A stretch of 61,875 nt of DNA, taken from UHGV virus genome UHGV-0856201; one strand, 5' to 3'. This stretch comes from a virus. Positions within the stretch are counted from its first letter, which is position 1; each line of letters starts with the position of its first letter. The notes beneath the pieces are model-generated. The model saw nothing but the letters and a program-made list of their open reading frames with translations, made no database searches and was not told the DNA's origin. Below are positions 1-61,875 of the stretch, piece by piece. Made by a program: the position numbers and the translations under genes.

Positions 1-139
1 TATTCAACAGGAAAACCACCTAATTAGAATTGCCGACCACAAACGGTCACTAACTTCCCTATGTTCTCTAACTTCCTCTTTACATCATTATTATTCATTA
101 GATACATTAGTAATCTGCGTCACAAGGAGGAGTGTCTTA

Positions 140-190
140 TGTGCTATATATTTGAAGACAGTGACGAATGGCTGAGTTTATGCCGCCAGA
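140..190 (+). promoter_or_regulatory. Anellovirus UTR core (TATA-like box plus conserved UTR motif)
   Basis: tatata at 145-150; cgaatggctgagtttatgccgc at 165-186, recognised as the conserved anellovirus UTR element. Confidence 0.6.
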
Positions 191-333
191 CGAAGACGGG
201 ATCACTTCAGTGACTCCAGGCTGAACTTGGGCGGGTGCCGAAGGTGAGTGAAACCACCGAAGTCAAGGGGCAATTCGGGCTAGTTCAGTCTGGCGGAACG
301 GGCAAGAAACTTAATATATATTATTTTACAGAT

Positions 334-618
334 ATGTTCCACAACCCAAACTATGGACACCACCGCCTACAATTGAAAATAACTAACACCTGCATCCAAG
401 TCCACGGATTAACCTGTTCCTGCAACAATCCAGGATTCCACTTACTACAAATTCTAACCACCCAAATAGGAAAAGAACTAAAACCAGAAGAAAAAAATCA
501 AATTAAACAATGCCTTGGAAACCAAGATACTACCGCCGCCGGTGGAGACGACGACCATATTTTTGGAGACCTAGAAGAACTTTTCGAAAAAGATTTTACA
601 GACGCCGATACTGGGTAA
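334..618 (+). CDS. Anellovirus ORF2-like protein
   Basis: ATG at 334 in frame of ORF 235-618; H-x3-C-x-C-x5-H signature (HGLTCSCNNPGFH); overlaps ORF1 start as in anelloviruses. Confidence 0.55.
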   Translation: MFHNPNYGHHRLQLKITNTCIQVHGLTCSCNNPGFHLLQILTTQIGKELKPEEKNQIKQCLGNQDTTAAGGDDDHIFGDLEELFEKDFTDADTG

Positions 619-1619
619 GCAGACGACGCTTTAAAAGAAAATTAAAAAAACTTTTAGTTAAAGAATATCAACCGCATTCTATAAGAAAATGTACTGTTAA
701 AGGACTACTATGTTTATTTCAGACTGATGTACAAAGAATAGGATTTAATTTTGATATGTATGAAGAATCTTTTGTACCAGATAAACTACCAGGTGGAGGA
801 GGCTTTAGCATAAAAAACTTATCATTATACAGTTTATATATAGAACACATAAACGGCCACAACATTTTTACACACTCCAACATCTATTACCCTCTGGTTA
901 GATACTTAGGATGCCAACTAAAATTTTACCAAAGTGCAAATGTAGACTACATAGTAACATACAGCAATACATGGCCATTAGAAAGCAACTTACAAATGTA
1001 CAACACCATGCAACCAGCCATTCACTCACTACAAAAAAACAAAATAATGATACCAGCAAAATCCACACAAAAAAGAAAAAGACCTTATAAAAAAGCATTT
1101 ATACCACCACCAACACAAATGAAATCACAATGGTACTTTGCCGCAGACATAGCAAAAAAACCACTACTAATGCTAAGAACCTCTAGCTGTTCTTTTGATC
1201 ACTGGTACATAGGCACAAGAATGATCAGCACAAACATAACTATATACACATTAAACTCATTAATGATTCAAAACAGACACTGGAATATATCAAACTATCA
1301 ATACTTCTCAAGATACTTAGGAACACAAAAATACTACCTATACAGCACAACACAAACATTTAATGTAATTACAGAACTAGAATTAAAACATGTTATATGT
1401 CTAGGAGACACAAAAAGAAATGTACCAGGAATTTCCTACTGGGACTTATATAAACAAGACCCCACAACAACAGAATTAGAAAAATACAAATCCCAAAAGA
1501 ACTGGGGAAACTGCTTTCATACTAATTATTTACAAGAACATGACCCTGTATTTGCAAGTCAAACAGACTGGGCAACAATAATCACAAAAATAGCAAGCAA
1601 AACCAAAAGACCACAGTAG
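510..1619 (+). CDS. Anellovirus ORF1 (capsid) N-terminal portion, interrupted
   Basis: Arg-rich N-terminus MPWKPRYYRRRWRRRPYFWRPRR; A-rich composition unlike rest of window; stops at 1617-1619, 61 nt before the phage junction. Confidence 0.75.
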   Translation: MPWKPRYYRRRWRRRPYFWRPRRTFRKRFYRRRYWVSRRRFKRKLKKLLVKEYQPHSIRKCTVKGLLCLFQTDVQRIGFNFDMYEESFVPDKLPGGGGFSIKNLSLYSLYIEHINGHNIFTHSNIYYPLVRYLGCQLKFYQSANVDYIVTYSNTWPLESNLQMYNTMQPAIHSLQKNKIMIPAKSTQKRKRPYKKAFIPPPTQMKSQWYFAADIAKKPLLMLRTSSCSFDHWYIGTRMISTNITIYTLNSLMIQNRHWNISNYQYFSRYLGTQKYYLYSTTQTFNVITELELKHVICLGDTKRNVPGISYWDLYKQDPTTTELEKYKSQKNWGNCFHTNYLQEHDPVFASQTDWATIITKIASKTKRPQ

Positions 1620-1684
1620 CAGATTTACCATACACATTTACAGACATACAACTAGTGGAACAAGTAAGATACAACCCATTCCTG

Positions 1685-2029
1685 TCAGTTAACATACTTC
1701 GCGATCAGTTTATCACAGTCCTCGCGACAGGTAGCATACTTAAACAGGTCACTTGCTGCTTCTGCCCGGTAGTCAGTATCAATAGTGTAATGTTCATTGA
1801 CATAGTTATAGGCTGCAAGGTAATTGCTGAACATCCCACTGGTTACCACTTTCGGTTGTCCCCTTACGACCTTACCGTTAAACAGATATGCTATTAGCAA
1901 AATCAGACCACCGATCACAGGACTTGTGAGAAATGCGATAAAGAACCATACACCAGAGTTACGACCTGTTTGTTTGGCAACACCCGCGACAACCAGAGAG
2001 AAAAGAATCCATAAAATAGTGAATAGCAT
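1685..2029 (-). CDS. small membrane protein (phage)
   Basis: 114-aa ORF with hydrophobic segments; RBS aaggagg; first gene downstream of promoter copy at 2050-2100. Confidence 0.5.
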   Translation of the reverse strand: MLFTILWILFSLVVAGVAKQTGRNSGVWFFIAFLTSPVIGGLILLIAYLFNGKVVRGQPKVVTSGMFSNYLAAYNYVNEHYTIDTDYRAEAASDLFKYATCREDCDKLIAKYVN

Positions 2030-2049
2030 GATTATGTCCTCCTTTGTTT

Positions 2050-2100
2050 TGATGTTTGTAGGTTACACGTCCTTGTGTAATCCGTCAAGAATTATTTTAA
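2050..2100 (-). promoter_or_regulatory. conserved phage early promoter (copy 1)
   Basis: plus-strand gtcaagaattatttta at 2084-2099; -35 TTGACG on minus strand with AT-rich upstream element. Confidence 0.6.
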
Positions 2101-2340
2101 ATTATCGTAGACAGGCGGTAAGCCCATTGCAGCCTGTACAGACCGTTTTTCGTATTCCTCCCGAAGTTTCTGAAGTCGTTCAATACCGATGTCACAACCA
2201 CGTATTATATCAGCGCACAGGTCGTTGTAGGTCGCTTCAGATTGCTTGCTGTGTGGGTAATCAACACAGGATGGATCTGCAATAATGACTTTCGGCAGAT
2301 ACGCGACAGTATCGCCCATTGCGTTTTTAAATATCGTCAT
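2092..2340 (-). CDS. hypothetical protein
   Basis: 82-aa ORF in compact minus-strand operon; no recognised motif. Confidence 0.4.
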   Translation of the reverse strand: MTIFKNAMGDTVAYLPKVIIADPSCVDYPHSKQSEATYNDLCADIIRGCDIGIERLQKLREEYEKRSVQAAMGLPPVYDNLK

Positions 2341-2666
2341 AAATACGACCCCACAATTGCAGCACAGTTGACGATCGCTAAACGCGTTGCTTTTTCACGG
2401 TCTTCCCCGTGGCTAACTGGTTGCTTATAACTAACGCCAGTGTCAGGGTTATTAACCGTCACTTCGTTGTCACGAACATCCAGATCCATGTACATGTTAA
2501 CCATCAGACTGAAAGCATCCTCATTACGTGTAAGAGGGTTCCACAGGCGACCATTACCTATATCAATACCTTCGTTTATGTAACGTTCGTCGTACGCGAC
2601 GTAATATTTACCCTGGATTTCAGCAGCCCGTGCTGCGTTGACTAATAAATCACGATTGTTCATCAC
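2337..2666 (-). CDS. hypothetical protein
   Basis: 109-aa ORF, start/stop overlap with neighbours; no confident family. Confidence 0.4.
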   Translation of the reverse strand: MMNNRDLLVNAARAAEIQGKYYVAYDERYINEGIDIGNGRLWNPLTRNEDAFSLMVNMYMDLDVRDNEVTVNNPDTGVSYKQPVSHGEDREKATRLAIVNCAAIVGSYL

Positions 2667-3022
2667 ATGTTCCCCGTTGTACGTTTATATTCTTGAACAC
2701 AGTAATCAAAGTATTCACCATGTGTTTTAACATAATTAATTAGTTCAATTATTACGTCACCGTGGCATGGTTTAGGAGAACAGAAACAAACTAAATCTTT
2801 ACCGTCTAAAGATAAAATATCAGATTTAGTTATGTTTCCTTTCAAACATTCATTCCACAACCATGTTTTATAACGAAATAATGTCGCACCTCGTTCTTCA
2901 TTTTCCGAAAGTTTAAAAGGGTTTGCGAATTTACTTTGTGTTAACCCTTTACCACCGCGACCAATATAAACAGCACCTTCTGGGATTTGTTTACCAATAT
3001 GGTAGAAGTTTAACACTTTCAT
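2663..3022 (-). CDS. DUF4326-family protein
   Basis: Start at internal Met (MKVLNFYHIG); motifs VYIGRGGKG, FANPF, CFCSPKPCHGDV match my recollection of DUF4326. Confidence 0.6.
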   Translation of the reverse strand: MKVLNFYHIGKQIPEGAVYIGRGGKGLTQSKFANPFKLSENEERGATLFRYKTWLWNECLKGNITKSDILSLDGKDLVCFCSPKPCHGDVIIELINYVKTHGEYFDYCVQEYKRTTGNM

Positions 3023-3023
3023 G

Positions 3024-3527
3024 TTACATGTCCCCCGTTGATCCAAACCCGCCATTACGCTGACTATCAACATCTGGTAATTCTTCCACTTCAACCAGGT
3101 TAACAGGTTCGACACGTTCAACCATAAGCTGACAAACACGTTCACCGTCTGCGATAGTCTGTAATTTCTGCCCGTGGTTAGTCAGCGAAACGTAGTATTC
3201 TTCTTTGTAATCACGATCACCGATACCCACACAGTTGATCAGTGATAAACCGTATTTAAGACTCATGCCGGAACGTGGGTAAATTTTAATGCAATATCCG
3301 CTATCAACTGACATTTTCAGACCAGTGGGGATCATAGCGCGGTCGCCGGGCCATAATGCGATTGTTCCTGCAACAACCGGACGTTCCACTTTAGCGCCTG
3401 ATTCTGTGAATATAGTTACCGATTCTTCCCACAGGCAAGCACGAACGTCTAACCCTGCGCTGTCTGGTGTTGCACGTGTCGGAAGTTCAGCGTGGGGTGT
3501 TAGTTTTTTGATATACAGGTTAGTCAT
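3024..3527 (-). CDS. dut: dUTP diphosphatase (dUTPase)
   Basis: Canonical dUTPase motifs: DSAGLDVRA, PRSGMSLKYG, GIGDRDYKEE, RNGGFGSTG. Confidence 0.9.
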   Translation of the reverse strand: MTNLYIKKLTPHAELPTRATPDSAGLDVRACLWEESVTIFTESGAKVERPVVAGTIALWPGDRAMIPTGLKMSVDSGYCIKIYPRSGMSLKYGLSLINCVGIGDRDYKEEYYVSLTNHGQKLQTIADGERVCQLMVERVEPVNLVEVEELPDVDSQRNGGFGSTGDM

Positions 3528-3554
3528 TGTTTGATTCCTCAGTGTGTTTCGTTC

Positions 3555-3605
3555 GTGACAAATGTTAGTGTGACCGCTTGCAATGTGTCAAGAATTATTT
3601 TAAAC
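3555..3605 (-). promoter_or_regulatory. conserved phage early promoter (copy 2)
   Basis: tgtcaagaattattttaaa; -35 TTGACA at 3586-3591 (minus); drives dut operon. Confidence 0.6.
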
Positions 3606-3634
3606 TTCTGTCAACGTTAACCAATGAGGAATAA

Positions 3635-4453
3635 ATGATGTTTGAACATCCGTGGAATATACCTGCATATGATGCTGAAAGTGAAAAACAATCACTTGAC
3701 TATCGAATGAAAACACAACAAGTAGACTGGAGTGAAGCGCCAGACTGGGCTACATGTGTTGTTCTTAATAAGACAACAAACACTTTTGCATGGTCTGACG
3801 GTTCAATGTACGCACCAATTTTAAGAAATCCACCACAAATTATGGAGAATGCTGATGACTTTGAAATCTTTGAAAAACGCTCTTGTGGTCCAGCAACACC
3901 TGTCAAAACAAAACTGTTAATGACACCGAAAGCCCGTGGTAATACTTACGAAGAATTCATTGCGACCGGGTGGAATGACGACCAGTTAGTCGAACATGGT
4001 TATGCTGTTCGCACCAATGATGAAATGACAAAATATAAACAACAGTCATTAGCAGACTTACACCTGGCGCATCTATTCACACCTGTTCAACAACCATCAA
4101 CAGTAACCCGTGCACCTAGACCAACACCACCTTCAAATTGTCGGTGTACATTCACACCTGTTCAACAACCATCAACAGCGTCTGACTTGCTGAAACAGGC
4201 TGAACAGCTACTGACTGAACGTGGTAAGCAGTACGACACGTCTGGTCAGGAACGTTCGTCAGCTAAAATCGTTGCTGCGTTTAACACAATTACCGGGCGC
4301 GACTTAACACCGGGTGAAGGGTGGTTGTTTCTGATGTTGTTAAAAGCGGTTCGTTTCTATTCCAACACTGAAACACTACATCGTGACAGTCTGGAAGACC
4401 TGATTAGCTACGCTGCATTACACGCAGAGGAATATCTTAACGATGAACGGTGA
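3635..4453 (+). CDS. hypothetical protein with internal direct repeat and conserved C-terminal domain
   Basis: 272 aa; repeat FTPVQQPST twice; motif TYEEFIATGWNDDQLVEHGYAV shared with ORF 33970-34881. Confidence 0.5.
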   Translation: MMFEHPWNIPAYDAESEKQSLDYRMKTQQVDWSEAPDWATCVVLNKTTNTFAWSDGSMYAPILRNPPQIMENADDFEIFEKRSCGPATPVKTKLLMTPKARGNTYEEFIATGWNDDQLVEHGYAVRTNDEMTKYKQQSLADLHLAHLFTPVQQPSTVTRAPRPTPPSNCRCTFTPVQQPSTASDLLKQAEQLLTERGKQYDTSGQERSSAKIVAAFNTITGRDLTPGEGWLFLMLLKAVRFYSNTETLHRDSLEDLISYAALHAEEYLNDER

Positions 4454-4625
4454 ACAGGCATTCGACCTTCTGGTTAAATACGACATTATTGTTATTCACT
4501 GTGACCGTGAACAAATCGTTTTCACAGACGATCTTCGTTATGAAGAACCTTATGACGGTGATAAACGGTCTGCCACGATTCGATTAATCGAACGTGTGGC
4601 ACGTGACAGAGGGGAACTATTATAA
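4443..4625 (+). CDS. hypothetical protein
   Basis: 60-aa ORF overlapping neighbours by a few nt (coupled). Confidence 0.35.
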   Translation: MNGEQAFDLLVKYDIIVIHCDREQIVFTDDLRYEEPYDGDKRSATIRLIERVARDRGELL

Positions 4626-4819
4626 TGGCTCAAACTATTTCTGAATTACTACCCACCGTTTATGGCAACGTGACAGAACTTGCCAGGCGGATTGGGTGTA
4701 ACAAAGCGACAGTTTATAAATATATGGATGACACCAACGGTGAATTTCACGCGGTGGTGAATGGTAAGTTGATGGTCAGACCAGGTTTTAAAGGACGTTA
4801 TACTCGTGACAAAAGATGA
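4625..4819 (+). CDS. small helix-turn-helix DNA-binding protein
   Basis: 64 aa; HTH-like segment TELARRIGCNKATVYKY. Confidence 0.45.
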   Translation: MAQTISELLPTVYGNVTELARRIGCNKATVYKYMDDTNGEFHAVVNGKLMVRPGFKGRYTRDKR

Positions 4820-4963
4820 AAAATTATTACGTGAACTTGAAATAGACTACGAACGAGCACAAAAAGCGTTACAGTTTCTGGAAGAACAGATCCGCGAAGT
4901 TAAGAACCGCATTCAGGGAACTGAAAAACGTAATCTTCCACGCCCGTAACACGTGATATAATC

Positions 4964-4992
4964 GGCCTCAGTGTGTTAACTGAGGCTTTTTT
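4964..4992 (+). terminator. rho-independent terminator
   Basis: hairpin ggcctcag...ctgaggc followed by TTTTTT. Confidence 0.7.
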
Positions 4993-5952
4993 ATGGCTAC
5001 TAAAGACCCATACCCGGATATTTCAGACAAGTATGACGCTCGCATTCGCGAAGCACTTGACGTTGTGTGGGAAAACGTGCGTCGTAGTGAGTCGTTAGCT
5101 AACCTGGAATACATCATTGAAACTCAGGGTATTGCCGGGCTACTCCCCATTCTTGAAACACTCCCTGATGAACTTAGTGCACAGTTGCGCCCGGTTATTG
5201 AAGACGCGATCGCCGAATCAGGTCGTGTAGTCGTTCAGGTTTTACCGAAAGCGGCTGTGACAGGTCCGGTTGTGTTCAGTCTGGTCACCCCACAGGTCAG
5301 TACATACATCAACAACTATGTCGGACAACTGATCCGTGAAGTCAGTGACGAAACAGTCAAAGCTGTTCAGATTGCTGTTAACCAGGGTGTGGTAACCGGA
5401 CGAAATCCGCGTCAGATAGCCCGTGATTTTCGATCATCAATAGGGTTAACCACACGGCAGGAAATGACGGTTCAACGTCTGCGATCAGCACTGGAAAAAG
5501 GTGAAGCAGGTTATGTGAACAGTCTGACCACTGTTACAGACAGTGCAAAGAACGCTGTAAGTGCCGGGAAACTATCACAGGCGAAGATTGACCAGATAAT
5601 CGAACAGACACGCTTGCGTTACGTAAAACAGCGTACAGAGACAATAGCGCGTACTGAATCACTTCGTGCTGTATCAGTTGGTCAGGATCAGGCAATACGT
5701 CAGGGACAGATTACCGGGGCTATTAGTAATGAATTGCTGAAGCGCTGGTTATATAGAAAGGATGGTCGGACACGTGATGCGCATATTTCCACGGGTGAAA
5801 CGAACGGTTGGATACCAATGGACAGACCGTTTTCAACGCCGTTAGGACCACTCATGTTTCCTCGTGATCCTAACGGTAGTGCCGCGAACGTGATTAATTG
5901 TCGTTGCAGGGTTGCTTATTCTCTCCCTCAAGATATAAATGTTATCCCGTGA
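4993..5952 (+). CDS. head morphogenesis protein (Mu F-like / SPP1 gp7-like)
   Basis: 319 aa; C-terminal NVINCRCRV motif and overall pattern typical of Mu-F family minor head proteins. Confidence 0.65.
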   Translation: MATKDPYPDISDKYDARIREALDVVWENVRRSESLANLEYIIETQGIAGLLPILETLPDELSAQLRPVIEDAIAESGRVVVQVLPKAAVTGPVVFSLVTPQVSTYINNYVGQLIREVSDETVKAVQIAVNQGVVTGRNPRQIARDFRSSIGLTTRQEMTVQRLRSALEKGEAGYVNSLTTVTDSAKNAVSAGKLSQAKIDQIIEQTRLRYVKQRTETIARTESLRAVSVGQDQAIRQGQITGAISNELLKRWLYRKDGRTRDAHISTGETNGWIPMDRPFSTPLGPLMFPRDPNGSAANVINCRCRVAYSLPQDINVIP

Positions 5953-6865
5953 TTATACGTATTAGAGTGGTTATATTTGGATTCCATTTTAACCACTCTG
6001 TACAACCATCGAACCCGGTTAATCCTGCAGATTCAAAATGAGAATGAAAATCTTTTTCAAGTGAACGAATGGTTTTACCATCAGAATTATATATTTCAAT
6101 AACATTGAATTCAAAAGGTGTTCTTTTCTTCAATATTTTTATTCTATTTTCAACATTGTTGCTAATACCTATTTTAACATAACTACCGCATAGAGATCTT
6201 AAAACATATAAGCTAGCTTTGTTTTTGATTTTAAAACCTGTTGCAGCGCAACCTGCACAACGTCTGTCAGTATGTAATAATGTTGTAGGTGTTGTTATAA
6301 ATTCACCATGTTTTTGACATTTAATTTTTATCTTACTGTATTGATTAACATACCCATTGACCCAACCCAAAAATTCATAATTTAATGACAAACATTTTTC
6401 ATTTATCTCTTTTTCTCTTATATGTAATGGTGTCTTTTTATTTTCAAAATAACATTTCTTACAGAAACTTTTATTTATAGTAATGTTGTTACCGGAAGAC
6501 ACCCACTGACCATGTTTAGTACATTCTATTAATGCTTTTGTGCGAACACCATGATAATTTTCAATCCATTTTACAAATTTATAACCTCGCGAGTTACAAA
6601 TATTAGTGATACGTTTTTCATATTCTTTTTGGTCTATACTATTTTTTAGTGCTATGTTCTCATTACTACATTTCTTACAAAAATTTCTACCATTCACTAT
6701 CAAATCAGAGGATGTTTCCCACTCACCATGTTTTTGACAATGCATTATTAGTCTACTTGATGCATTCTTGTAACCATTTAAGAATCTGACAAAATGATAA
6801 ATAGTACCTTTGCAAATTTCTGAAATCTCTGAAAGTCTTTCATGTTCTGTTTTTCGTTTAGTCAA
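5942..6865 (-). CDS. T5orf172-domain protein with Zn-ribbon repeats (homing-endonuclease-like), paralog 1
   Basis: Repeated CxKHGxW...CKKC modules; C-terminal YVLRS...KIGIS...GFDGCTEWL typical of T5orf172 domain. Confidence 0.65.
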   Translation of the reverse strand: MTKRKTEHERLSEISEICKGTIYHFVRFLNGYKNASSRLIMHCQKHGEWETSSDLIVNGRNFCKKCSNENIALKNSIDQKEYEKRITNICNSRGYKFVKWIENYHGVRTKALIECTKHGQWVSSGNNITINKSFCKKCYFENKKTPLHIREKEINEKCLSLNYEFLGWVNGYVNQYSKIKIKCQKHGEFITTPTTLLHTDRRCAGCAATGFKIKNKASLYVLRSLCGSYVKIGISNNVENRIKILKKRTPFEFNVIEIYNSDGKTIRSLEKDFHSHFESAGLTGFDGCTEWLKWNPNITTLIRIITG

Positions 6866-6941
6866 AATAAAACCTCCTGTTGTTTAACTCAATATTAGCA
6901 ACAGGAGGTTAAGTGGTCAAGCAAGATATTGGTTCGTTGGG

Positions 6942-7208
6942 TTAATCAGGTTCACGCCAGTCAAGAGGTCGCACATCACATAACAGACGAACATTATCTT
7001 CAAATTTTATGTTTACCCTGTGATGTGCCGTATCATTTTCATAAACAGAGGGCCATATTTCATAACCCTGAACAGTTCGTGCCACCCACTTGTTAATGCT
7101 TGCCAGATGGATCAACACTTCACAACCAACGGGAGGAAGGTTTTTACCATCCCAAATCTGTTTCATTCCCATAGCGGTTACTCCTGTTTCTCCCCGCAGA
7201 ACGGACAA
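6942..7208 (-). CDS. hypothetical protein
   Basis: 88-aa ORF; no recognised motif. Confidence 0.4.
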   Translation of the reverse strand: MSVLRGETGVTAMGMKQIWDGKNLPPVGCEVLIHLASINKWVARTVQGYEIWPSVYENDTAHHRVNIKFEDNVRLLCDVRPLDWREPD

Positions 7209-7453
7209 TAAGACATTTTGATGTTGGTTTCCAGGCGTGTGAAGTTCTTCGCCAGTTCACCGTTTTTCTTTTTAGCGCGGTATGTAAGACGATATTTCAA
7301 CATGACGTGTGTTTTACCAGACGTCAGACCGAAACACTGATTATCCCAGCCAACTTTATCAAACAGGTTAGTGCTGACTTCCGAACCTACTGGTACTTTT
7401 TCCATCAGACGTTTTTGAAGTTCGTCACCAACTTTTTTCATGCAATCACACAT
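7178..7453 (-). CDS. hypothetical protein with C-terminal Zn-binding motif
   Basis: 91 aa; CDC near N-term and CPFCG at C-term. Confidence 0.4.
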   Translation of the reverse strand: MCDCMKKVGDELQKRLMEKVPVGSEVSTNLFDKVGWDNQCFGLTSGKTHVMLKYRLTYRAKKKNGELAKNFTRLETNIKMSYCPFCGEKQE

Positions 7454-49348: not shown

Positions 49349-49349
49349 A

Positions 49350-54524: not shown

Positions 54525-54556
54525 GGCGGGATTATTCCCGCCCGTTTTCTTTTTTT
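54525..54556 (+). terminator. rho-independent terminator after terL
   Basis: ggcgggattattcccgcc followed by gttttcttttttt. Confidence 0.7.
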
Positions 54557-54600
54557 AATTCTTGACAAATTACATTATAAATGTTTGTAAATTATCTGTT
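54548..54600 (+). promoter_or_regulatory. conserved phage early promoter (copy 14)
   Basis: ttaattcttgacaaattac; -35 TTGACA 54563-54568; -10 not clearly assigned. Confidence 0.5.
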
Positions 54601-54680
54601 AGGCTAATGTAACGCGTTTATACTCCTGTAGGTAACCGATCGGTTACAGTTAATTAACATTCTCTCACAGGAGTTTCAAC

Positions 54681-55376
54681 ATGTCTGACATGACTTTAGT
54701 TCCCACTGGCGGTTTCGGCGGTGAAGCTGGCGCGGCTGCACTTGGTGGTGGTATCGGCGGTCTTATCGGTTCCTGGTTCGGTAACGGCTGGGGTGGCGGT
54801 GGTGGCTGGGGTGGTCGCGGTAACTTTGGTGGTCCTGTAGAAGTTCAAGCCTCTGTAGATACCAACGCTATTCTGCAAGCCATCAATAACGGTGCTCTTC
54901 AGACCATTCAGGGTCAGAATGGTACAAACCTGACCGTTGAACGCGCTGCAGCTTCCACTTTTAACGGTATCACTCAACAGAACACACAAAACCTGCTGGC
55001 ATCTGTACAAGGTTTTGCAGGTCTGAACACGCAGATTCAACAGGGTACTAACACTGTGACCAATGCGATCTGTGCATCTGAAACTGCGGCACTGACTCGT
55101 TCTTTCCAGGCACAGTTAGCGGCTGAGAAGTGTTGTTGCGAAACCAACCTGAACATTGAACGTCAGGCAGAAGCAACTCGTGCACTGATCCGTGACCAGT
55201 TCGCACAGTCTCAGGCTGTTCTGATTTGTGACCTGAAATCTCAGATTCAAACCCGTGACTTCCAGTTGTCTCAATTATCACAAACGTCTCAGTTGGAGTG
55301 CAAAATTAACCAGGTCGATCAGCTTATTAACTTCAAGCTGCCTACTCCGCAAACTCCACCGACTGGCTGCTGCTAA
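54681..55376 (+). CDS. Gly-rich / Gln-Asn-rich protein with Cys motifs
   Basis: N-terminus GGFGGEAGAAALGGGIGGLIGSWFGNGWGGGGGWGGRGNFGG; CCC internal and C-terminal GCC; RBS aggag. Confidence 0.5.
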   Translation: MSDMTLVPTGGFGGEAGAAALGGGIGGLIGSWFGNGWGGGGGWGGRGNFGGPVEVQASVDTNAILQAINNGALQTIQGQNGTNLTVERAAASTFNGITQQNTQNLLASVQGFAGLNTQIQQGTNTVTNAICASETAALTRSFQAQLAAEKCCCETNLNIERQAEATRALIRDQFAQSQAVLICDLKSQIQTRDFQLSQLSQTSQLECKINQVDQLINFKLPTPQTPPTGCC

Positions 55377-55426
55377 TTGGTCAACTAAGCGCCTCTGTAC
55401 GGGGCGCTTTAACAGGAGATGAGAGT

Positions 55427-55786
55427 ATGCATTACAAACCGTATTACGTTATCAAAAAAGACGATGATGACGATGAAGAGGAAGATGTAGAAATTCATCA
55501 CCACCATCATTATCACCACGGGCATCACCCGGACACGATGGGAGTATTTCATCATGATAGCTCTGTTAGCGAACATGGTTCAGTTATGGCCCATGTTAAA
55601 GCACGTATGGATAACCCTCCTTCGACTTGGGCGTCGTACCACGATAAGCCCGGCGGGATGATGTCCATTGTTGAAATGGAATATCGCGAACTAATGGAAG
55701 AAAAAGCCGAAGGTTCGACGTCTGGTATTAAAAAAGAGCTAACAGATCTGGCTGCAGCCTGTATCAACGCGCTTAAAAAGATGTAA
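55427..55786 (+). CDS. His-rich acidic protein
   Basis: DDDDDEEEDVEIHHHHHYHHGHH near N-terminus; 119 aa. Confidence 0.45.
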   Translation: MHYKPYYVIKKDDDDDEEEDVEIHHHHHYHHGHHPDTMGVFHHDSSVSEHGSVMAHVKARMDNPPSTWASYHDKPGGMMSIVEMEYRELMEEKAEGSTSGIKKELTDLAAACINALKKM

Positions 55787-55802
55787 CTAACAGGAAACCG
55801 AC

Positions 55803-56306
55803 ATGCAGAATATTAACGCAGGTATGGGTGTCACCCAGTTTAACGGCATGAAACCGCGAAGCACTATTAACATTGGTGGTGTGGAGTGGTCATTACGTCG
55901 GGATGCCACTGACTCAACAACAATGTTTCCTCATCCGAAGGTAAGCTGGCTTAACGCTGGTTGTGAACCGATGGGTGATGGTCGTTTTCATTACTGTTGG
56001 ATTTTGGGTGTGATTCCCCCGACACCGGGGACAATCGAACGACCGGTTAATGTGATGTATGTTGGTTTCCATCAATTTAAAATTAATATTGCACCTAATT
56101 CAATTAGTCAGGCTGATTTGGACAGGATGCATGTTTATGTCAGCGACACTTCACATTTTGCTGGTGAATTTGTCAGTAAGTTTTTAGGTACAGAACCTGA
56201 ACCTGTGGAAACTCGTGAAAATATCAGCCCGTGGCCCCCGATGAATGATCCTCGTGAGCAACCAAAAGTAGCCAAAAATAAGGTAAACGAAGATGACGAA
56301 GAATGA
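55803..56306 (+). CDS. hypothetical protein
   Basis: 167 aa, acidic C-terminus. Confidence 0.4.
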   Translation: MQNINAGMGVTQFNGMKPRSTINIGGVEWSLRRDATDSTTMFPHPKVSWLNAGCEPMGDGRFHYCWILGVIPPTPGTIERPVNVMYVGFHQFKINIAPNSISQADLDRMHVYVSDTSHFAGEFVSKFLGTEPEPVETRENISPWPPMNDPREQPKVAKNKVNEDDEE

Positions 56307-56547
56307 AGGGGTAGACAAAGTAGTCGAAAGTCTGGGGTTACGCGCACACGTAATCGTAGACGAAGGTCACAGTCAAGAAGCGATCATGAAGTCGGCATTT
56401 AACGATTTTAAAGCGTTGGGTTCAATGAGTGGGATCATGGGAGTGATGGCTACCGGGAAATTAAGTCAGCAACAGTTAGATCTGGCACAACGTATCGCTG
56501 TGAAAGTAATTGCCGTTTTAGGTCTTAAAGAGTCAGAAAAAGCGTAA
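56293..56547 (+). CDS. hypothetical protein
   Basis: 84-aa ORF overlapping previous stop. Confidence 0.35.
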   Translation: MTKNEGVDKVVESLGLRAHVIVDEGHSQEAIMKSAFNDFKALGSMSGIMGVMATGKLSQQQLDLAQRIAVKVIAVLGLKESEKA

Positions 56548-56560
56548 AAAGGGGGTTATT

Positions 56561-56725
56561 ATGTGTTGTAGAACATCATGTTGTCTGGGAAGTCCTGCTA
56601 CGCAATTTGGTCTTCTTCAGTCACAGATTGCACATACTCAGGCCGTTTTCAGAGGGTTTACCAGTCCGTTCATAGTACCGTTACAGTTTTCCGCGTTCAC
56701 GTTTAGGCCTTTTGTATTTTACTGA
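56561..56725 (+). CDS. small Cys-rich peptide (54 aa)
   Basis: Strong RBS aaaaagggggt; MCCRTSCCLGSPATQFG...; ends at terminator. Confidence 0.3.
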   Translation: MCCRTSCCLGSPATQFGLLQSQIAHTQAVFRGFTSPFIVPLQFSAFTFRPFVFY

Positions 56726-56733
56726 TCGACTTT

Positions 56734-56759
56734 GCCCCGGAACTGTCCGGGGCTTTTTT
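56734..56759. terminator. bidirectional rho-independent terminator
   Basis: gccccggaactgtccggggc followed by TTTTTT. Confidence 0.7.
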
Positions 56760-57040
56760 CAACGTCTGAAAGATGAAAGAACAGCGAGGCTAGCAGAACC
56801 TAAACCGAATATGACGGCGTATGTTAGTTGATGTTGAAGTTTCACAAAACCGTAATAATCGCTTTGTAATTCCACGATGTCAAAAGCAATTGAAAAACTG
56901 GTTACCAGCAACATGATTGAAAGAACACGAATCAGAGCAACTGCTAACCCTATCACCCCTTGTTCTTTTTTCTCAGTTGTAATAACGACAACAATCATTA
57001 ACAGAAGTGAAAAAGCAATGTACATGTATTCCATAATCAT
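56759..57040 (-). CDS. small membrane protein
   Basis: 93 aa with two hydrophobic helices. Confidence 0.4.
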   Translation of the reverse strand: MIMEYMYIAFSLLLMIVVVITTEKKEQGVIGLAVALIRVLSIMLLVTSFSIAFDIVELQSDYYGFVKLQHQLTYAVIFGLGSASLAVLSSFRR

Positions 57041-57201
57041 TAGTCCCGATAAACTTCAGCACACCCGTAATTTTTACCAGGGTTGTAAGCCTGTTCAGCT
57101 TGTAAAGCACCCTGACACTGTTCGAACGTCATGATGCGTTCTGTCACAGGTTCAATAGCCACACCGTATAGAACAAGCACCAGTACATAACCAATTAACA
57201 T
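57040..57201 (-). CDS. small membrane/secreted protein (53 aa)
   Basis: MLIGYVLVLVLYGVAIEPV...; TAATG-type overlap with downstream gene. Confidence 0.3.
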   Translation of the reverse strand: MLIGYVLVLVLYGVAIEPVTERIMTFEQCQGALQAEQAYNPGKNYGCAEVYRD

Positions 57202-57530
57202 TCTCTTAGAGTCTCCGCCCAGTCCAGACCATGTAGGTTTACAGTTGCAAGCCTCACTTTTGGGATACCGTAACGACGATTATCCCAAAATTCATCACAG
57301 AGTTCTGGTTCACTAAAATACCCGTAAACAACCCCGTAACTATTCGTGGCTATATAGTCAATATCTTCAGGAACAGTTAAAGACAAACCAAAATAATTGA
57401 CCGTTTTATACACGTCTGCACTAGCCAGTGTCATTTTACAATCTGGTGCTTCTTCGTGGATATCCCACGATTTACCACAATGCGAACACTGATATTCATC
57501 ATTACAGCGAATAGCGTTTACATGATTCAT
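57195..57530 (-). CDS. hypothetical Cys-containing protein
   Basis: CNDEYQCSHCGKSWDIHEEAPDC; 111 aa. Confidence 0.4.
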   Translation of the reverse strand: MNHVNAIRCNDEYQCSHCGKSWDIHEEAPDCKMTLASADVYKTVNYFGLSLTVPEDIDYIATNSYGVVYGYFSEPELCDEFWDNRRYGIPKVRLATVNLHGLDWAETLREC

Positions 57531-57542
57531 GATTATTCTTCC

Positions 57543-57878
57543 TCAGTTACGGATGATACCGTTGATGGAATGTGAATTAGCACATGACTTTGTAGTAATA
57601 TTTCCATTAACTGTTTTGATATTACCGCTATCCCCAGTGACAGAAACATTACCATTAACCGTTTTGATATCTCCACTGTTTCCTGAAATGTTAACTTCAC
57701 CGTTAGTCGTTTCAATGGATTCGACATCACCATAAACACTGATCGATATGTTACCAACCAGATTACCATCAACCTGTATGCCATCAACAATTACTTTATC
57801 ACCGTTAATTTCAAATTTACGCCCTGTAAATTCACGACCGTCAATTATTACTTTACCATTACTCATATTTATTTTCAT
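57543..57878 (-). CDS. beta-solenoid repeat protein (bactofilin-like)
   Basis: Repeats VIVDGIQVDGNLVGNISISVYGDVESIETTNGEVNISGNSGDIKTVNGNVSVTGDSGNIKTVNGNI. Confidence 0.45.
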   Translation of the reverse strand: MKINMSNGKVIIDGREFTGRKFEINGDKVIVDGIQVDGNLVGNISISVYGDVESIETTNGEVNISGNSGDIKTVNGNVSVTGDSGNIKTVNGNITTKSCANSHSINGIIRN

Positions 57879-58195
57879 TTAACTGTCTCCGGTACAAACC
57901 ACATTGACGCAAGATATGCACACCCGGCAATTTTATGTTCGTGTTTAGGTTCGAAACTACCCAGGATCACTTTGATATGTGCGTGAGCATCTTTAAAGTT
58001 CACACCTTCAACAGCAACTGCGTATTCTTTCAGACCGTTGAAAAACCATTTGCTGATCCACTGATTCCACGGGTTAGAATTTTCGAAAAATTCTTTCGGA
58101 ATACTACCCATCGTCGGGAGGAATTCAGCAATGTTTTTAGGTCCAAAAGCAATATCCAGTTGTGTAATATTTTCATTCGGTTTCATAGTCATCAC
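57875..58195 (-). CDS. hypothetical protein
   Basis: 106 aa; first gene after promoter copy 15. Confidence 0.4.
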   Translation of the reverse strand: MMTMKPNENITQLDIAFGPKNIAEFLPTMGSIPKEFFENSNPWNQWISKWFFNGLKEYAVAVEGVNFKDAHAHIKVILGSFEPKHEHKIAGCAYLASMWFVPETVK

Positions 58196-58209
58196 CCTTC
58201 GTTCATTTG

Positions 58210-58260
58210 ATGACTAAAGCATAATCGCAAGTTTGCAATCCGTCAAGAATTATTTTAACA
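58210..58260 (-). promoter_or_regulatory. conserved phage early promoter (copy 15)
   Basis: ccgtcaagaattattttaacacc; -35 TTGACG 58241-58246 (minus). Confidence 0.6.
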
Positions 58261-58328
58261 CCGTGCAAAAAAACCATCACTGATATAACATACGTTAAGA
58301 ACCGTAAACCGTATGGAGCCTGTAAAAC

Positions 58329-59684
58329 ATGGCTGATCAACAATTCGAACAACTAGCCGTTGCCGGGTACAGTCGAACAGGCAACCAGGTAAACGACGAT
58401 TTCCTTCCTAAACTAAACGGTAAACAAGGCCGTCGTATTCTTCGTCAGATGGCTGAGAACGACGAAACTATTGGCGGTGTGTTGTTCGCCATGAGTAGCG
58501 TTTATCGTTCTGTACAGTGGATTTTTGACCCGTCTGACAAAGATGATCCAGAAGCTATCCGTTATTCAGAATGGTTACAGGATGCTATTGAAAATAAAAT
58601 GGGTGATCCGCGTGGTGCACTCCCGGATGATACCTGGTCTGCGTTCGTTCAGACATGGACAGACGTTGATGTATTCGGCTGGGGTTGGTATGACATCTGG
58701 GTCAAAGATCTTGATGACGGCACTGTGGGTATTGCCCGTCTGGTTCCTGTAGCACCTGAAACGCTTGCTGGCTGGGATATTGAAGAACCGACAGGTTATG
58801 TTCGTGGTATTTATCAACGTTCACCTAATCAGGGTACAACGACGTTAATCACACGTGACCGTTCGCTTCATTTGATTTCAAGTCCGAATAAAGGTAACCC
58901 GGAAGGTTTATCACTGCTGCGCACAGCTTATCGTCCGTGGTATTACAAAAAAGTGAATATGGAAATCGAATCCATACTTGCCGAACGTGGTACAGGGTTC
59001 CCGGTAATTACTGTTAACGCAGATATTAAGAAAGCGGCTAATGACCCTAATGTTCCTGAACAACAGCGTCAGGCAGCACAGGCGATGATTGATAACTATG
59101 AAAATATCGTTGCTAATATCAAACGCAATGAACAATCAGGACTGGTGATTTATTCTAAACCTTATATCACGGGTTACGATAACGAAACAGGTGTTACCAC
59201 GTACGGTGGTGAACAACAGGTGAAGCTGGAATTCGTTACACCTAACCAGACCAGTTCCGTGGATATTGACCGGACGATTAAACGCCTGGATACCAGTATT
59301 GCCCGTGCGTTACTGGCTGATTTCATGTTTTTCGGAACGGGTGGTAATACCGGGAATAACGCCAACCTGGGTAGTCGTACTGAATTATGGATCCGCGCAA
59401 TGCAATCACGTATTGACAGCATTGTAGAATGTGTTAATCGTCAGTTGATACCGCAGTTATGGTCGTTAAACGCATTTCCTGATGAATACCGCCCGTCGAT
59501 TCGCGCCGGATCGATCAGTAAAGACAGTATCGAAACGTTGACCACTGCACTTGCACGACTTGCACAAGCTGGCGCACCTGTATTCCCGGATCCAGACCTT
59601 CAGGAATACGTATATAAAGAGGCGGGTCTACCAATTACGGGGATTGATAAAGCAGGGGACGGATTACCGTCTATTGACGACTGA
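58329..59684 (+). CDS. putative portal protein
   Basis: 451 aa; downstream of terL and, across the circular join, upstream of the Mu-F-like gene. Confidence 0.5.
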   Translation: MADQQFEQLAVAGYSRTGNQVNDDFLPKLNGKQGRRILRQMAENDETIGGVLFAMSSVYRSVQWIFDPSDKDDPEAIRYSEWLQDAIENKMGDPRGALPDDTWSAFVQTWTDVDVFGWGWYDIWVKDLDDGTVGIARLVPVAPETLAGWDIEEPTGYVRGIYQRSPNQGTTTLITRDRSLHLISSPNKGNPEGLSLLRTAYRPWYYKKVNMEIESILAERGTGFPVITVNADIKKAANDPNVPEQQRQAAQAMIDNYENIVANIKRNEQSGLVIYSKPYITGYDNETGVTTYGGEQQVKLEFVTPNQTSSVDIDRTIKRLDTSIARALLADFMFFGTGGNTGNNANLGSRTELWIRAMQSRIDSIVECVNRQLIPQLWSLNAFPDEYRPSIRAGSISKDSIETLTTALARLAQAGAPVFPDPDLQEYVYKEAGLPITGIDKAGDGLPSIDD

Positions 59685-59690
59685 ATGAAA

Positions 59691-59712
59691 AAGGGACCGT
59701 TACTGGTCCCTT
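59691..59712. terminator. bidirectional terminator hairpin
   Basis: aagggaccgttactggtccctt between convergent genes. Confidence 0.55.
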
Positions 59713-59717
59713 AATTT

Positions 59718-60050
59718 TTACTTAGCTTCAGGTTGCACGATTGACAGTAATTTGCTCGCTTCATCAACCGCAGTCTGAATACGAGTCTGTAACGGATAAC
59801 TGTTGTTGATCGCACGTTCCAGCGTTTTATCAAGCAATTGCAGTTTGACTTCATCATCGCCAGTGAACGCGTACATGTCAGCAACGACTTCCTTAAACTG
59901 TGATGCTTTCTCAACGATAGTTGTGGTTACAATGTAGTTCCAGACTTTGTTGAGTAGTTTAAATTTCACTTCGTTGTCAGCAACTGCATCAACCAGAATT
60001 TCAGCAGCAGTCTTGTCATATTTAACAAGCTCAAGAATTTCAAAACGCAT
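59718..60050 (-). CDS. hypothetical protein
   Basis: 110-aa ORF; RBS ggagaagac; co-transcribed with 1685-2029 across the circular join. Confidence 0.4.
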   Translation of the reverse strand: MRFEILELVKYDKTAAEILVDAVADNEVKFKLLNKVWNYIVTTTIVEKASQFKEVVADMYAFTGDDEVKLQLLDKTLERAINNSYPLQTRIQTAVDEASKLLSIVQPEAK

Positions 60051-60060
60051 TTAAGTCTTC

Positions 60061-60187
60061 TCCTGTCAGTTAACATACTTCGCGATCAGTTTATCACAGT
60101 CCTCGCGACAGGTAGCATACTTAAACAGGTCACTTGCTGCTTCTGCCCGGTAGTCAGTATCAATAGTGTAATGTTCATTGACATAGT
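60061..60187. repeat. 127-bp exact repeat of phage start (1681-1807); circular-contig overlap
   Basis: 60061-60187 identical to 1681-1807; length 127 equals a common assembler k-mer size. Confidence 0.9.
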
Positions 60188-60287
60188 NNNNNNNNNNNNN
60201 NNNNNNNNNNNNNNNNNNNNNNNNNNNNNNNNNNNNNNNNNNNNNNNNNNNNNNNNNNNNNNNNNNNNNNNNNNNNNNNNNNNNNNN
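60188..60287. other. 100-N scaffold gap
   Basis: Run of exactly 100 N. Confidence 1.
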
Positions 60288-60414
60288 CGTGAATTGTTCG
60301 ATCCGAAAACTCGTGCAAAAGCGTCTGAACAACTGGATAAGATCACCGGGAACAGTATCGACCGTGTGGAATTGTCTGGCGTGGTTGGTAACGTGGTTCA
60401 GAGTGTTCCTGAAG
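60288..60414. repeat. 127-bp exact repeat of phage 48532-48658 (inside terS)
   Basis: Identical to terS internal segment; diverges into anellovirus sequence at 60415. Confidence 0.9.
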
Positions 60415-61454
60415 ACAAACAACAACTAGAGCAACACGCAGGAAACCCTTTTACATCAGAATATTTAACTAATCCAGAAGGACTATTCACAAGCACAAAA
60501 GACCCTACAAACTTTTTTCTACAATTTACAGAAAAAACACAAGCACTTGAAACACATAAAACAACATTAAACTACAATCACCTACAACACCCATTAATAT
60601 TAGAAACAAGATACAATCCAAATAAAGACCAAGGCCTACATAACAAAGCATATGTACTACCAGTAAACAAACCAGGAGTTAACTGGACACCACCAAATGA
60701 TGAAGACTTAATATTAGAAGGATTTCCAATATGGTTACTAATATTTGGATTTATAGACTACATTAAAAAAACTCAAAAGCTAATTAATGTAGACGAAAAA
60801 CATGTACTATGCATACAAACATCTAACACAAACCCAAAATGGGACCAACCTATTATACCACTCTCATATACATTTGAAGAAGGACACAGCCCTTACAGCA
60901 AACAATTAAACCCATATGACACAGACAAATGGTATCCACAAATACAATACCAAGAAGAAGCCATAAATGATATTATAAAATGTGGACCAGGAACAGCTAA
61001 AATAGGAGACAGACTTAGTGAAGAGATTAAATGTGAATATGAATTTTATTGGAAATGGGGAGGACATCCACCTAAAATGCTAACTATAGACAATCCTGCA
61101 CAACAGGGAACATATCCCATACCCCGTAACAGCATCACATCAAATTCGTTACAGAATCCAGCAACACCACCAGAGTACTTCTTATACAGCTTCGACGAAA
61201 GACAGGGACTGCTTACAAAAACAGCTGCAAAAAGAATTAGAAAAGACTGGGAATCTAAAGACTATGTATCTGACTTTACAGAATCAACAAAAGAAGTCCC
61301 AATGCAAACACTCCAAACATCATCCGACGAAACATCGGACTCGGAAAAAGAAGAGGAGACACTACTCCAGCAGCTCCACCGACAGCAACAGCACCAGAAG
61401 CAGCTCAAGCGCCGAATTCTCAGATTAATGCAGAAAAATCCAAATTTAGAATAA
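60415..61454 (+). CDS. Anellovirus ORF1 C-terminal portion (partial)
   Basis: A-rich, Thr/Asn/Lys-rich ORF ending in Ser/Glu-rich and basic tail; composition matches 510-1619. Confidence 0.65.
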
Positions 61455-61658
61455 TACAATGTACTCAATATGTTAAACTGTTTGATGATAAAACTGTAAA
61501 AAATAGACGCATGAATAAGTATGAAATGGAACATGAAAAAGATGTAGCTAAAGCCTTTTGTAGACCACCAAAAAAATTCTTACTTGATGTACCATACTAC
61601 CCATGGGTAGACATCCCAGAACCACTTGTAAACTTTCACCTGAGATATAACTTTGATG

Positions 61659-61664
61659 AATAAA
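61659..61664 (+). promoter_or_regulatory. polyadenylation signal (AATAAA)
   Basis: aataaa ~200 nt downstream of ORF1 stop, as in anelloviruses. Confidence 0.5.
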
Positions 61665-61749
61665 CAAGGCCAACAATATTCACTTAGTGGTGTCAGTTTA
61701 TATAAGTTAAAACCTAAATAAACATCCGTTACCAATTGAAATTTGTTGG

Positions 61750-61840
61750 CGCCAAAAGGGGGCTCCGCCCCCTTTAACCCCCAAGGGGGCTCCGCCCCCT
61801 TAAACCCCCAAAGGGGGCTCCGCCCCCTTAAACCCCCGGA
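61750..61840. repeat. Anellovirus GC-rich region with three ~27-bp repeats
   Basis: gggggctccgccccc at 61758, 61785 and 61813, each followed by ttaaaccccc. Confidence 0.8.
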
Positions 61841-61875
61841 AACCACAAAATTTGCATTGCCGACCACAAACGAAC

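What the first reader, a model, noticed from the sequence alone, without database searches (positions are those of the whole stretch)
1..61875. Chimeric scaffold: anellovirus genome split around a complete phage genome, with k=127 assembly signatures
Positions 1-1680 and 60415-61875 are A-rich anellovirus-like sequence, and 1681-60060 is a tailed-phage genome. The right junction is built from two exact 127-bp duplications (60061-60187 = 1681-1807; 60288-60414 = 48532-48658) separated by exactly 100 N. This is the signature of de Bruijn contig ends (k=127) joined by a scaffolder, not of a biological insertion. A eukaryote-infecting ssDNA virus carrying a 58 kb dsDNA enterobacterial phage inside its capsid gene is biologically implausible. 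The anellovirus ORF1 frame also has stops at 1617 and 1653 before the left junction, so the anellovirus part may itself be imperfect.
Basis: partly seen in the sequence, partly recalled or inferred. Interest (0 to 1): 0.8.

Follow-up and report, generated by a model that had tools for sequence, protein, structure and literature searches.

The report
Three-genome chimeric assembly scaffold
This window is an assembly artefact, not a biological insertion: a complete E. coli phage genome has been stitched between partial genomes of two different human anelloviruses, and it should be split into three records.

Summary
There is one run of exactly 100 N and two exact 127-bp duplications. One duplication is off by one: 60061-60187 equals 1680-1806, so the left junction is 1679|1680. 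Positions 1680-60060 (58,381 bp) form a complete, circularly closed Sashavirus (9NA-like E. coli siphophage) genome. Relatives run straight through both "junction" 127-mers. The flanks are not one anellovirus split in two. The left flank is 99% identical to contig CYGL01002811.1. The right flank is 92% (protein) identical to TTMV ORF1 UGV34857.1. The two flanks are about 67% identical to each other's lineage. They overlap by about 209 nt in ORF1 and about 48 nt in the UTR. The layout is what a k=127 de Bruijn path prints: entry edge, both arcs of the phage circle, an N gap, then the exit edge with its leading k-mer. The two direct joins have no microhomology and share no 16-mer, so they need rare chimeric reads. 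The left flank's only two indels, which break ORF1, lie within 88 nt of the join. Verdict: artefact, low interest, useful only for quality control.

The parts
1..1679 (+). Partial genome of betatorquevirus (TTMV) 'A': conserved UTR, ORF2 (ATG 334-618, same frame as the listed 235-618 ORF), and the N-terminal ~390 codons of ORF1 (from 510), ending at the RYNP motif.
   Evidence: Pfam TT_ORF1 E 4.8e-79, profile positions 3-301 of 525; the TT_ORF2-like match is just under its cut-off. It is 96.4% identical to CYGL01002811.1 over 1-1679 and about 99.2% over 201-1582. It is 91% identical to Logan contigs L001-L003. All four relatives continue past 1679 with their own ORF1.
1592..1610 (+). Two single extra A's (at 1592 and 1610). 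They shift ORF1 from frame 0 to frame 2 and create the stops at 1617 and 1653.
   Evidence: These are the only indels against L005 and L001-L003 in 1679 nt. Both lie within 88 nt of the junction, and removing them restores an open ORF1 through RYNP.
1679..1680 (.). Direct join of TTMV-A to phage, with no N and no microhomology.
   Evidence: Relatives of A continue with AYAAAGACGACGG, whereas the window continues with phage TCCTGTCAG. The phage's own upstream base differs. Anellovirus and phage share no 16-mer.
1680..60060 (+). Complete circularly closed genome unit (58,381 bp) of a Sashavirus / 9NA-like E. coli siphophage.
   Evidence: It is 94-97% identical and collinear with vB_EcoS_AVIO78A, KarinMuster_Bas82, PJ16, BDX09P1, Sasha and Sergei around the whole circle. 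Relatives are 57.8-58.5 kb. The closure point is contiguous as a single alignment piece in 4 records. Tetranucleotide correlation between thirds of the phage is 0.95-0.96.
60061..60187 (+). Exact 127-bp copy of 1680-1806. It is the k-mer vertex where the circle closes and where the TTMV-A edge enters.
   Evidence: D8, spacing 58,381.
60188..60287 (.). Scaffold gap of exactly 100 N.
60288..60414 (+). Exact 127-bp copy of 48532-48658, which lies inside the 3' end of the small-terminase gene (48058-48708). It is the k-mer vertex from which the edge leading to TTMV-B leaves the phage circle.
   Evidence: (D9). Bas82 aligns in one piece through 48658.
60414..60415 (.). Direct join of phage to TTMV-B, with no N and no microhomology detectable.
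60415..61875 (+). Partial genome of a second betatorquevirus, 'B': the C-terminal ~345 codons of ORF1 (60417-61454), the 3' UTR with three ~28-nt GC-rich repeats (61752-61837), and the start of the conserved UTR.
   Evidence: Pfam TT_ORF1 E 6e-39, profile positions 356-525. It is 92% identical to UGV34857.1 residues 319-670. It is only 67-70% nt identical to the relatives of A. GC-rich repeats are (D12).
13..45 (+). Conserved UTR block that recurs at 61840-61872 (88% identical). The two outer ends of the scaffold overlap homologously here by about 48 nt.
   Evidence: D15.

Best explanation
The window is one scaffold written out from a k=127 de Bruijn assembly graph, most likely metaSPAdes-type. 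In that graph a high-coverage, circularly closing Sashavirus genome had two spurious side branches. One edge came in from a partial TTMV-A contig at the vertex 1680-1806. One edge went out to a partial TTMV-B contig at the vertex 48532-48658.

The path builder walked the A edge, then arc 1 of the circle (1680-48658), then arc 2 (48532-60060 plus the closing k-mer). It could not continue without re-using arc 1, so it jumped with a fixed 100-N gap to the exit edge. That edge is printed with its leading 127-mer.

The two direct joins must come from a few chimeric reads. These could be in vitro fragment-to-fragment joins or template switches made during virome library preparation or amplification. 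The outer ends fall in the UTR block shared by co-occurring anelloviruses, where such graphs branch.

Shown: the anatomy, the identities of the three genomes, their non-contiguity, and the native continuity of the phage. Inferred: which assembler was used, the scaffolding rule, and that chimeric reads rather than molecules present in vivo made the joins.
For: 1. Both duplications are exactly 127 bp with no extension, and they are the only such repeats. 127 is SPAdes' maximum k, and SPAdes leaves overlapping sequence at contig ends (PMC5481147). JGI runs metaSPAdes with k=33,55,77,99,127.
2. The first 127-mer is the circle-closure point of a 58,381-bp unit. That unit matches the length of its relatives, and four Sashavirus records align in one piece across the closure point. 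9NA-type phages package by headful from a pac site and assemble as circles (PMC4153490).
3. The second 127-mer lies inside terS, and Bas82 reads straight through it. The phage is therefore intact at both attachment points.
4. The flanks are different viruses. The left flank is 99% identical to CYGL01002811.1. The right flank is 67% nt identical to that lineage and 92% aa identical to UGV34857.1. The homologous overlap is about 209 nt in ORF1 and about 48 nt in the UTR, and 3140-257 = 2883 nt, a normal TTMV length.
5. All four relatives of A continue with anellovirus sequence exactly where the window switches to phage.
6. The only two indels in the left flank, and 4 of its 15 differences from L005 downstream of position 200, lie in the last 97 nt before the join. 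That span is shorter than one read.
7. Tetranucleotide composition separates the flanks from the phage.
Against: No reads, coverage values or assembly graph are available, so the low support of the two direct joins is inferred and not seen.

The source scaffold was not found in any searchable collection, so the assembler is not documented.

The fixed 100-N rule is recalled from the SPAdes code and the NCBI unknown-gap convention. It is not verified here (searches found nothing usable).

Blunt joins with zero microhomology are atypical for MDA chimeras (PMC1855051), so the laboratory route that made the chimeric reads is open.
Confidence: 0.9

Rival explanations
1. A physical chimeric DNA molecule really existed in vivo: phage DNA (1680-48658, or more than one unit length) recombined between anellovirus fragments.
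For: The two joins are direct and base-precise, so sequence spanning them existed in at least one read or earlier-k contig. When 1679 is joined to 60415 the ORF1 frame stays open.
Against: The flanks are two different anelloviruses that overlap by about 209 nt, so there is no single target that was interrupted. The phage is intact and circular through both attachment points. The hosts are a human cell for the ssDNA virus and E. coli for a virulent dsDNA phage, so there is no shared replication compartment (established biology). An anellovirus capsid packages about 3 kb. The frame being open has a 1-in-3 chance by itself, and ORF1 is already broken upstream.
Confidence: 0.02
2. This is the first reader's picture: one anellovirus genome, cleanly split at one point, with the phage placed inside by the assembler.
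For: The flank lengths sum to 3140 nt, near an anellovirus genome. The left flank holds the 5' half and the right flank the 3' half. The frame is continuous if the flanks are rejoined.
Against: Against the same reference ORF1, the left flank is 40% identical (residues 54-368, with its frame-2 tail aligning to 376-393) and the right flank is 92% identical (residues 319-670). The two therefore cover the same ~69 codons with unrelated sequence. At the nt level, L001 position 1501 corresponds to window 1679, whereas window 60415 corresponds to about L001 1292. The rejoined 30-mer is absent from viral contigs.
Confidence: 0.03
3. A purely computational concatenation with no chimeric read. Examples are a gap closer or scaffolder joining unrelated contig tips, or records pasted together after assembly.
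For: The N gap shows that at least one join was made without sequence evidence.
Against: The other two joins carry no N and no overlap. The genomes share no 16-mer, so no k-mer or tip-overlap rule could have merged them. The printed layout obeys graph logic exactly, with each edge keeping its leading 127-mer, which post-hoc pasting would not reproduce.
Confidence: 0.05

Closest known systems
SPAdes/metaSPAdes-type circular-contig and edge-overlap signature (k=127) in metagenome scaffolds
   Same: The duplications are exact and k-length at the closure of a circular genome and at the start of an edge printed after a gap. 127 is the assembler's top k. N filler separates path pieces.
   Different: Here the circle also carries an entry edge and an exit edge from two unrelated viruses, so the scaffold contains three genomes. 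The assembler itself is not documented for this window.
Sashavirus (Salmonella phage 9NA / Sasha group; Escherichia phages vB_EcoS_AVIO78A, KarinMuster_Bas82, PJ16)
   Same: It is 94-97% nt identical over 57-87% of each third of the genome. It has the same gene order, the same ~58 kb size, and it assembles as a circle, as expected for pac headful packaging.
   Different: Mosaic gaps leave overall similarity well below 95% of full length, so it is probably a further species or strain of the genus. Nothing unusual was seen.
Betatorquevirus (TTV-like mini virus): CYGL01002811.1 and Logan contigs SRR16632900_418 etc. for the left flank; ORF1 UGV34857.1 for the right flank
   Same: ORF1 has the TT_ORF1 domain, ORF2 has the HX3CXCX5H motif, the conserved UTR is present, there are GC-rich repeats, and the implied unit is about 2.9 kb.
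   Different: Neither flank is a complete genome. The left ORF1 carries two frame-breaking extra A's next to the chimeric join.
In vitro chimeras of amplified virome DNA (MDA template switching; Lasken & Stockwell 2007)
   Same: They produce base-precise joins between unrelated sequences that assemblers then propagate.
   Different: More than 70% of MDA chimeras show 2-21 nt of microhomology, and most are intramolecular inversions. Here both joins are intermolecular with 0 nt of microhomology, which fits blunt fragment ligation at least as well.

Membership tests
k=127 de Bruijn scaffold artefact | Exact duplications whose length equals the assembler's k, located at edge or contig boundaries | tested here: met
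   There are two exact 127-bp repeats with no extension and no other such repeat. 127 is the maximum k of SPAdes and the final k of the JGI workflow.
k=127 de Bruijn scaffold artefact | The genome in the middle is natively continuous through the duplicated k-mers, so the joins are side branches and not breakpoints | tested here: met
   Relatives align in a single piece across 60060->1680 and across 48658.
k=127 de Bruijn scaffold artefact | Junctions supported by few or aberrant reads, with a coverage step between the segments | not testable with these tools
   No reads or coverage are available. The only hint is indirect: both indels of the left flank lie within 88 nt of the join.
Single anellovirus genome interrupted by an insertion | The two flanks are contiguous (or duplicated by a few bases) in one and the same genome | tested here: not met
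   The flanks overlap by about 209 nt in ORF1 and about 48 nt in the UTR with divergent sequence. They are 40% and 92% identical to one reference ORF1.
Biological insertion or integration of a mobile element | The insert ends coincide with the element's ends; a target-site duplication or att-like repeats are present | tested here: not met
   The attachment points lie in an intergenic spacer (1680) and inside terS (48658) of a circularly closed genome. No repeat flanks the joins.
Anelloviridae, genus Betatorquevirus (each flank) | ORF1 capsid protein with an Arg-rich N-terminus and the TT_ORF1 domain; closest relatives are TTMV | tested here: met
   Pfam PF02956 E 4.8e-79 and 6e-39. All best hits are TTV-like mini virus or Betatorquevirus ORF1 of 580-680 aa.
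Anelloviridae, genus Betatorquevirus (each flank) | Complete circular ~2.8-2.9 kb genome | tested here: not met
   Each flank is only about half a genome. The related contig L005 shows the full unit.
Sashavirus (9NA-like siphophages) | High nucleotide identity and synteny with genus members over the whole genome; ~53-58 kb; circular assembly | tested here: met
   terS, terL, portal, major capsid, tape measure, DNA polymerase, primase and helicase are annotated under the matches.

The most novel reading that the evidence does not exclude
The junction-spanning sequences reflect a real physical molecule in the sample, in which about 47 kb of Sashavirus DNA is covalently flanked by fragments of two different human anelloviruses. 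It would have formed in vivo or inside particles, not during library preparation.
Probability: 0.01. Interest if true: 0.7.

Novelty: not a real feature. Interest (0 to 1): 0.06.

Why it matters
It matters only as quality control. If left as one record, the scaffold would look like a 62-kb 'anellovirus-phage hybrid'. That would corrupt host prediction, taxonomy, genome-size statistics and protein clustering in viral databases. The fused ORF across the N gap, 60171-61454, is one example.

The correct treatment is to split it into three records:
- A complete circular Sashavirus genome, 1680-60060.
- A partial TTMV-A, 1-1679, best trimmed at about 1582.
- A partial TTMV-B, 60415-61875.

The case also gives a compact recipe for spotting such scaffolds from sequence alone: k-length exact repeats, an N gap, and native continuity of the middle genome in its relatives.

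Tried and rejected
1. Looking for the source or an independent copy of the joins.
- The junction 30-mer, the rejoined anellovirus 30-mer and the start of B all gave no hit in viral contigs.
- The A-end 22-mer in metagenome contigs found only an ordinary anellovirus contig.
- Exact-protein look-ups of ORF1-N and ORF2 found nothing.
- The terS look-up returned a different ~96% Sashavirus contig, not the source.

2. Microhomology between A's continuation and B's start. L001-L003 continue with ACAAAG, which shares 5 nt with B's ACAAAC. But the closest relative, L005, continues with ATAAAG (common prefix of 1), and 13 of 28 identities has p about 0.04 in this A-rich sequence. I rejected this as chance.

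3. The pac-site idea. 48658 lies 50 nt before the terS stop, and pac sites of headful phages often lie in terS (my own knowledge). However, the join uses the sequence to the left of the point, which does not fit a rightward-packaged virion end, and 1680 is unrelated to terS. This was left unresolved and does not affect the verdict.

4. Literature support for a fixed 100-N gap in SPAdes scaffolds. Two searches gave nothing usable, so this is stated as recollection only.

5. IMG/VR relatives of B via the search for related loci: none.

B's native sequence upstream of 60415 is therefore known only at the protein level.
Full report
**1. Checking the observation**

The window holds one N run, 60188-60287, of exactly 100 N. 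The second claimed duplication is exact: 60288-60414 equals 48532-48658, 127 bp, with no extension on either side.

The first claimed duplication fails at the stated coordinates. It is exact after a one-base shift: 60061-60187 equals 1680-1806 (D8). The left junction is therefore 1679|1680, and the phage unit is 1680-60060, which is 58,381 bp.

The repeat finder lists these two as the only 127-bp exact repeats in the window (D8 and D9). Base composition matches the description. The flanks are 40-41% A and 36-38% GC, and the middle is 43% GC. Tetranucleotide profiles correlate 0.87 between the flanks, 0.50-0.65 between the flanks and the phage, and 0.95-0.96 among thirds of the phage.

**2. The middle segment**

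Positions 1680-60060 are a Sashavirus, a 9NA-like siphophage of E. coli and Salmonella. The segment is 94-97% identical to, and collinear with, vB_EcoS_AVIO78A, KarinMuster_Bas82, PJ16, BDX09P1, Sasha and Sergei around the whole circle. Those genomes are 57.8-58.5 kb, which matches 58,381 bp.

I built a 2-kb query across the closure point (59061-60060 joined to 1680-2679). It aligns as a single piece at 96-97% in four records, running from the end of the portal gene into the small leftward genes. The 127-bp repeat is therefore simply the closure of a circular assembly.

A circular assembly is expected here. 9NA assembled as a circle and packages by headful from a pac site (PMC4153490).

The other duplicated 127-mer, 48532-48658, lies in the 3' end of the small-terminase gene, 48058-48708. 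Bas82 aligns straight through it. The phage is thus intact at both points where foreign sequence is attached.

**3. The flanks are two viruses, not one**

Both flanks carry TT_ORF1. The left flank matches profile positions 3-301 and the right flank 356-525, which at first looks like one split gene. Homologues show otherwise.

- The right flank is 92% identical to ORF1 UGV34857.1 (TTV-like mini virus, 670 aa) over residues 319-670.
- The left flank is only 40% identical to the same protein, over residues 54-368. Its frame-2 tail, LPYTFTDIQLVEQVRYNP, aligns to residues 376-393.
- The two flanks therefore cover the same ~69 codons with different sequence.

At the nucleotide level the picture is the same. 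The left flank is 91% identical to Logan contigs L001-L003. It is 96.4% identical to ENA contig CYGL01002811.1 (L005) overall, and about 99.2% over 201-1582. The right flank is only 67-70% identical to those contigs.

Window 1679 corresponds to L001 position 1501, and window 60415 to about L001 position 1292. That is an overlap of about 209 nt.

The outer ends also overlap, by about 48 nt, in the conserved UTR block: 13-45 against 61840-61872, 88% identical (D15). The arithmetic fits: 3140 - 209 - 48 = 2883 nt, an ordinary TTMV unit.

An alignment of the window with L001-L003 shows all three continuing past ...GATACAACCCAT with ACAAAGACGACGG (RYNPYKDDG). L005, the closest relative, continues with ATAAAGACGACGG at the same point. 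The window switches abruptly to phage there.

**4. The ORF1 'stops'**

Frame 0 does stop at 1617 and 1653. The cause is two extra A's, at 1592 and 1610. These are the only indels against L005 and L001-L003 in 1679 nt. Deleting them restores an open ORF1 through RYNP.

Both lie within 88 nt of the chimeric join. Downstream of position 200, 4 of the 15 differences from L005 fall in the last 97 nt, against 11 in the preceding 1382 nt.

This is an inference, not a demonstration: the stretch from about 1583 through the join may rest on one or a few aberrant reads, because that stretch is shorter than a typical read.

**5. The joins**

The joins at 1679|1680 and 60414|60415 are direct, with no N. 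The anellovirus and phage sequences share no 16-mer. There is no microhomology at either join. For the right join this rests on a T inferred from the Tyr codon of the B lineage.

A k-mer overlap therefore cannot have merged these sequences by itself. Sequence that spans each join must have existed in at least one read. SPAdes' re-use of lower-k contigs would then carry such a link up to k=127 (my own knowledge of the assembler).

MDA chimeras usually show 2-21 nt of microhomology and are mostly intramolecular inversions (PMC1855051). Blunt fragment-to-fragment ligation is therefore at least as likely a source. This cannot be decided without the reads.

**6. How the layout arises**

Treat the two 127-mers as graph vertices V1 (1680-1806) and V2 (48532-48658). 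The graph then has four edges:
- the circle's arc P1, from V1 to V2;
- the circle's arc P2, from V2 to V1;
- an in-edge from A into V1;
- an out-edge from V2 to B.

The window reads A, P1, P2 (ending with V1), 100 N, then the out-edge starting with V2. This is exactly how a path with a gap is printed when every edge keeps its leading k-mer.

127 is the largest k in SPAdes, and SPAdes leaves overlapping sequence at contig ends (PMC5481147). JGI's workflow uses metaSPAdes with k=33,55,77,99,127. The fixed 100-N filler fits my recollection of SPAdes and the NCBI unknown-gap convention, but I could not verify it.

The outer ends of the scaffold sit in the UTR block shared among co-infecting anelloviruses, where such graphs branch and contigs end.

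**7. Rivals**

- A true in vivo recombinant is implausible. The flanks are two viruses, so there is no interrupted target. The phage is intact and circular. The partners replicate in different cells.
- The 'one genome split' picture is refuted by the homologous overlap.
- A read-free computational paste is unlikely, because two of the joins lack N and the layout obeys graph logic.

**8. Verdict**

This is an artefactual three-genome scaffold with no biological novelty. The components are ordinary: a complete Sashavirus, probably a further species or strain, and two partial TTMVs. The record should be split. Interest is low, and the value lies in quality control.

Noticed in passing
window 2084-58257 (15 sites, e.g. 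2084-2099, 8604-8619, 49093-49108): A conserved 16-mer, TAAAATAATTCTTGAC, occurs 15 times in the phage against 0.09 expected. It reads as an AT-rich UP-like element plus a TTGAC -35 box, and it is embedded in a ~26-nt repeat, TTTAAAATAATTCTTGACGGATTACA. Most copies are on the minus strand upstream of the leftward gene blocks. It is probably a family of phage early or middle promoters (D4, D5 and I1-I7).
   Followed up: partly
window 48532-48658 / 48058-48708: The phage-to-TTMV-B attachment point (48658) lies 50 nt before the stop codon of the small-terminase gene. In several pac-type phages the pac site lies in this region, so a natural DNA end could have favoured chimera formation. However, the orientation does not obviously fit.
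   Followed up: partly
window 46-165: The left flank is about 99% identical to CYGL01002811.1 from about 166 onward, but it diverges strongly (about 45 differences) in the UTR stretch 46-165. This is either natural UTR recombination or variation, or a strain switch inside the anellovirus contig.
   Followed up: no
window 8808-9122; 46769-46928; 34085-34307: There are in-frame-looking tandem repeats in the phage. A 21-nt unit occurs about 15 times at 8808-9122, a perfect 21-nt unit about 6 times at 46790-46907, and a 30-nt Gly/Ala/Thr-type unit at 34085-34307 (D1-D3).
   Followed up: no
window 8422-8521 and 47693-47792; also 8268-8315 / 8604-8651: A 100-nt AT-rich segment is repeated at 96% identity upstream of terS and at 8.4 kb. 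A 48-nt inverted repeat flanks the 8.3-8.65 kb region. These may be regulatory or origin-like regions of the phage (D10 and I1).
   Followed up: no
window ~44850-46300: Short stretches (50-300 nt) are 85-100% identical to lambdoid and Stx-converting prophages in the ea22 / DUF4752 / EaE small-gene region. This gives about 470 hit records and looks like ordinary mosaic exchange of small accessory genes.
   Followed up: partly
window 60171-61454: A mechanical ORF of 427 aa runs from phage sequence, through the 100-N gap and the terS fragment, into anellovirus ORF1. Gene callers would emit a fused phage-X-anellovirus 'protein' from this scaffold.
   Followed up: yes
L005 (CYGL01002811.1, 3281 nt): This public anellovirus contig is longer than one genome unit. 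Its two ends both align to L001 positions 1661-2055, which gives about 395 nt of terminal redundancy. It is a circular TTMV genome printed with overlap.
   Followed up: partly
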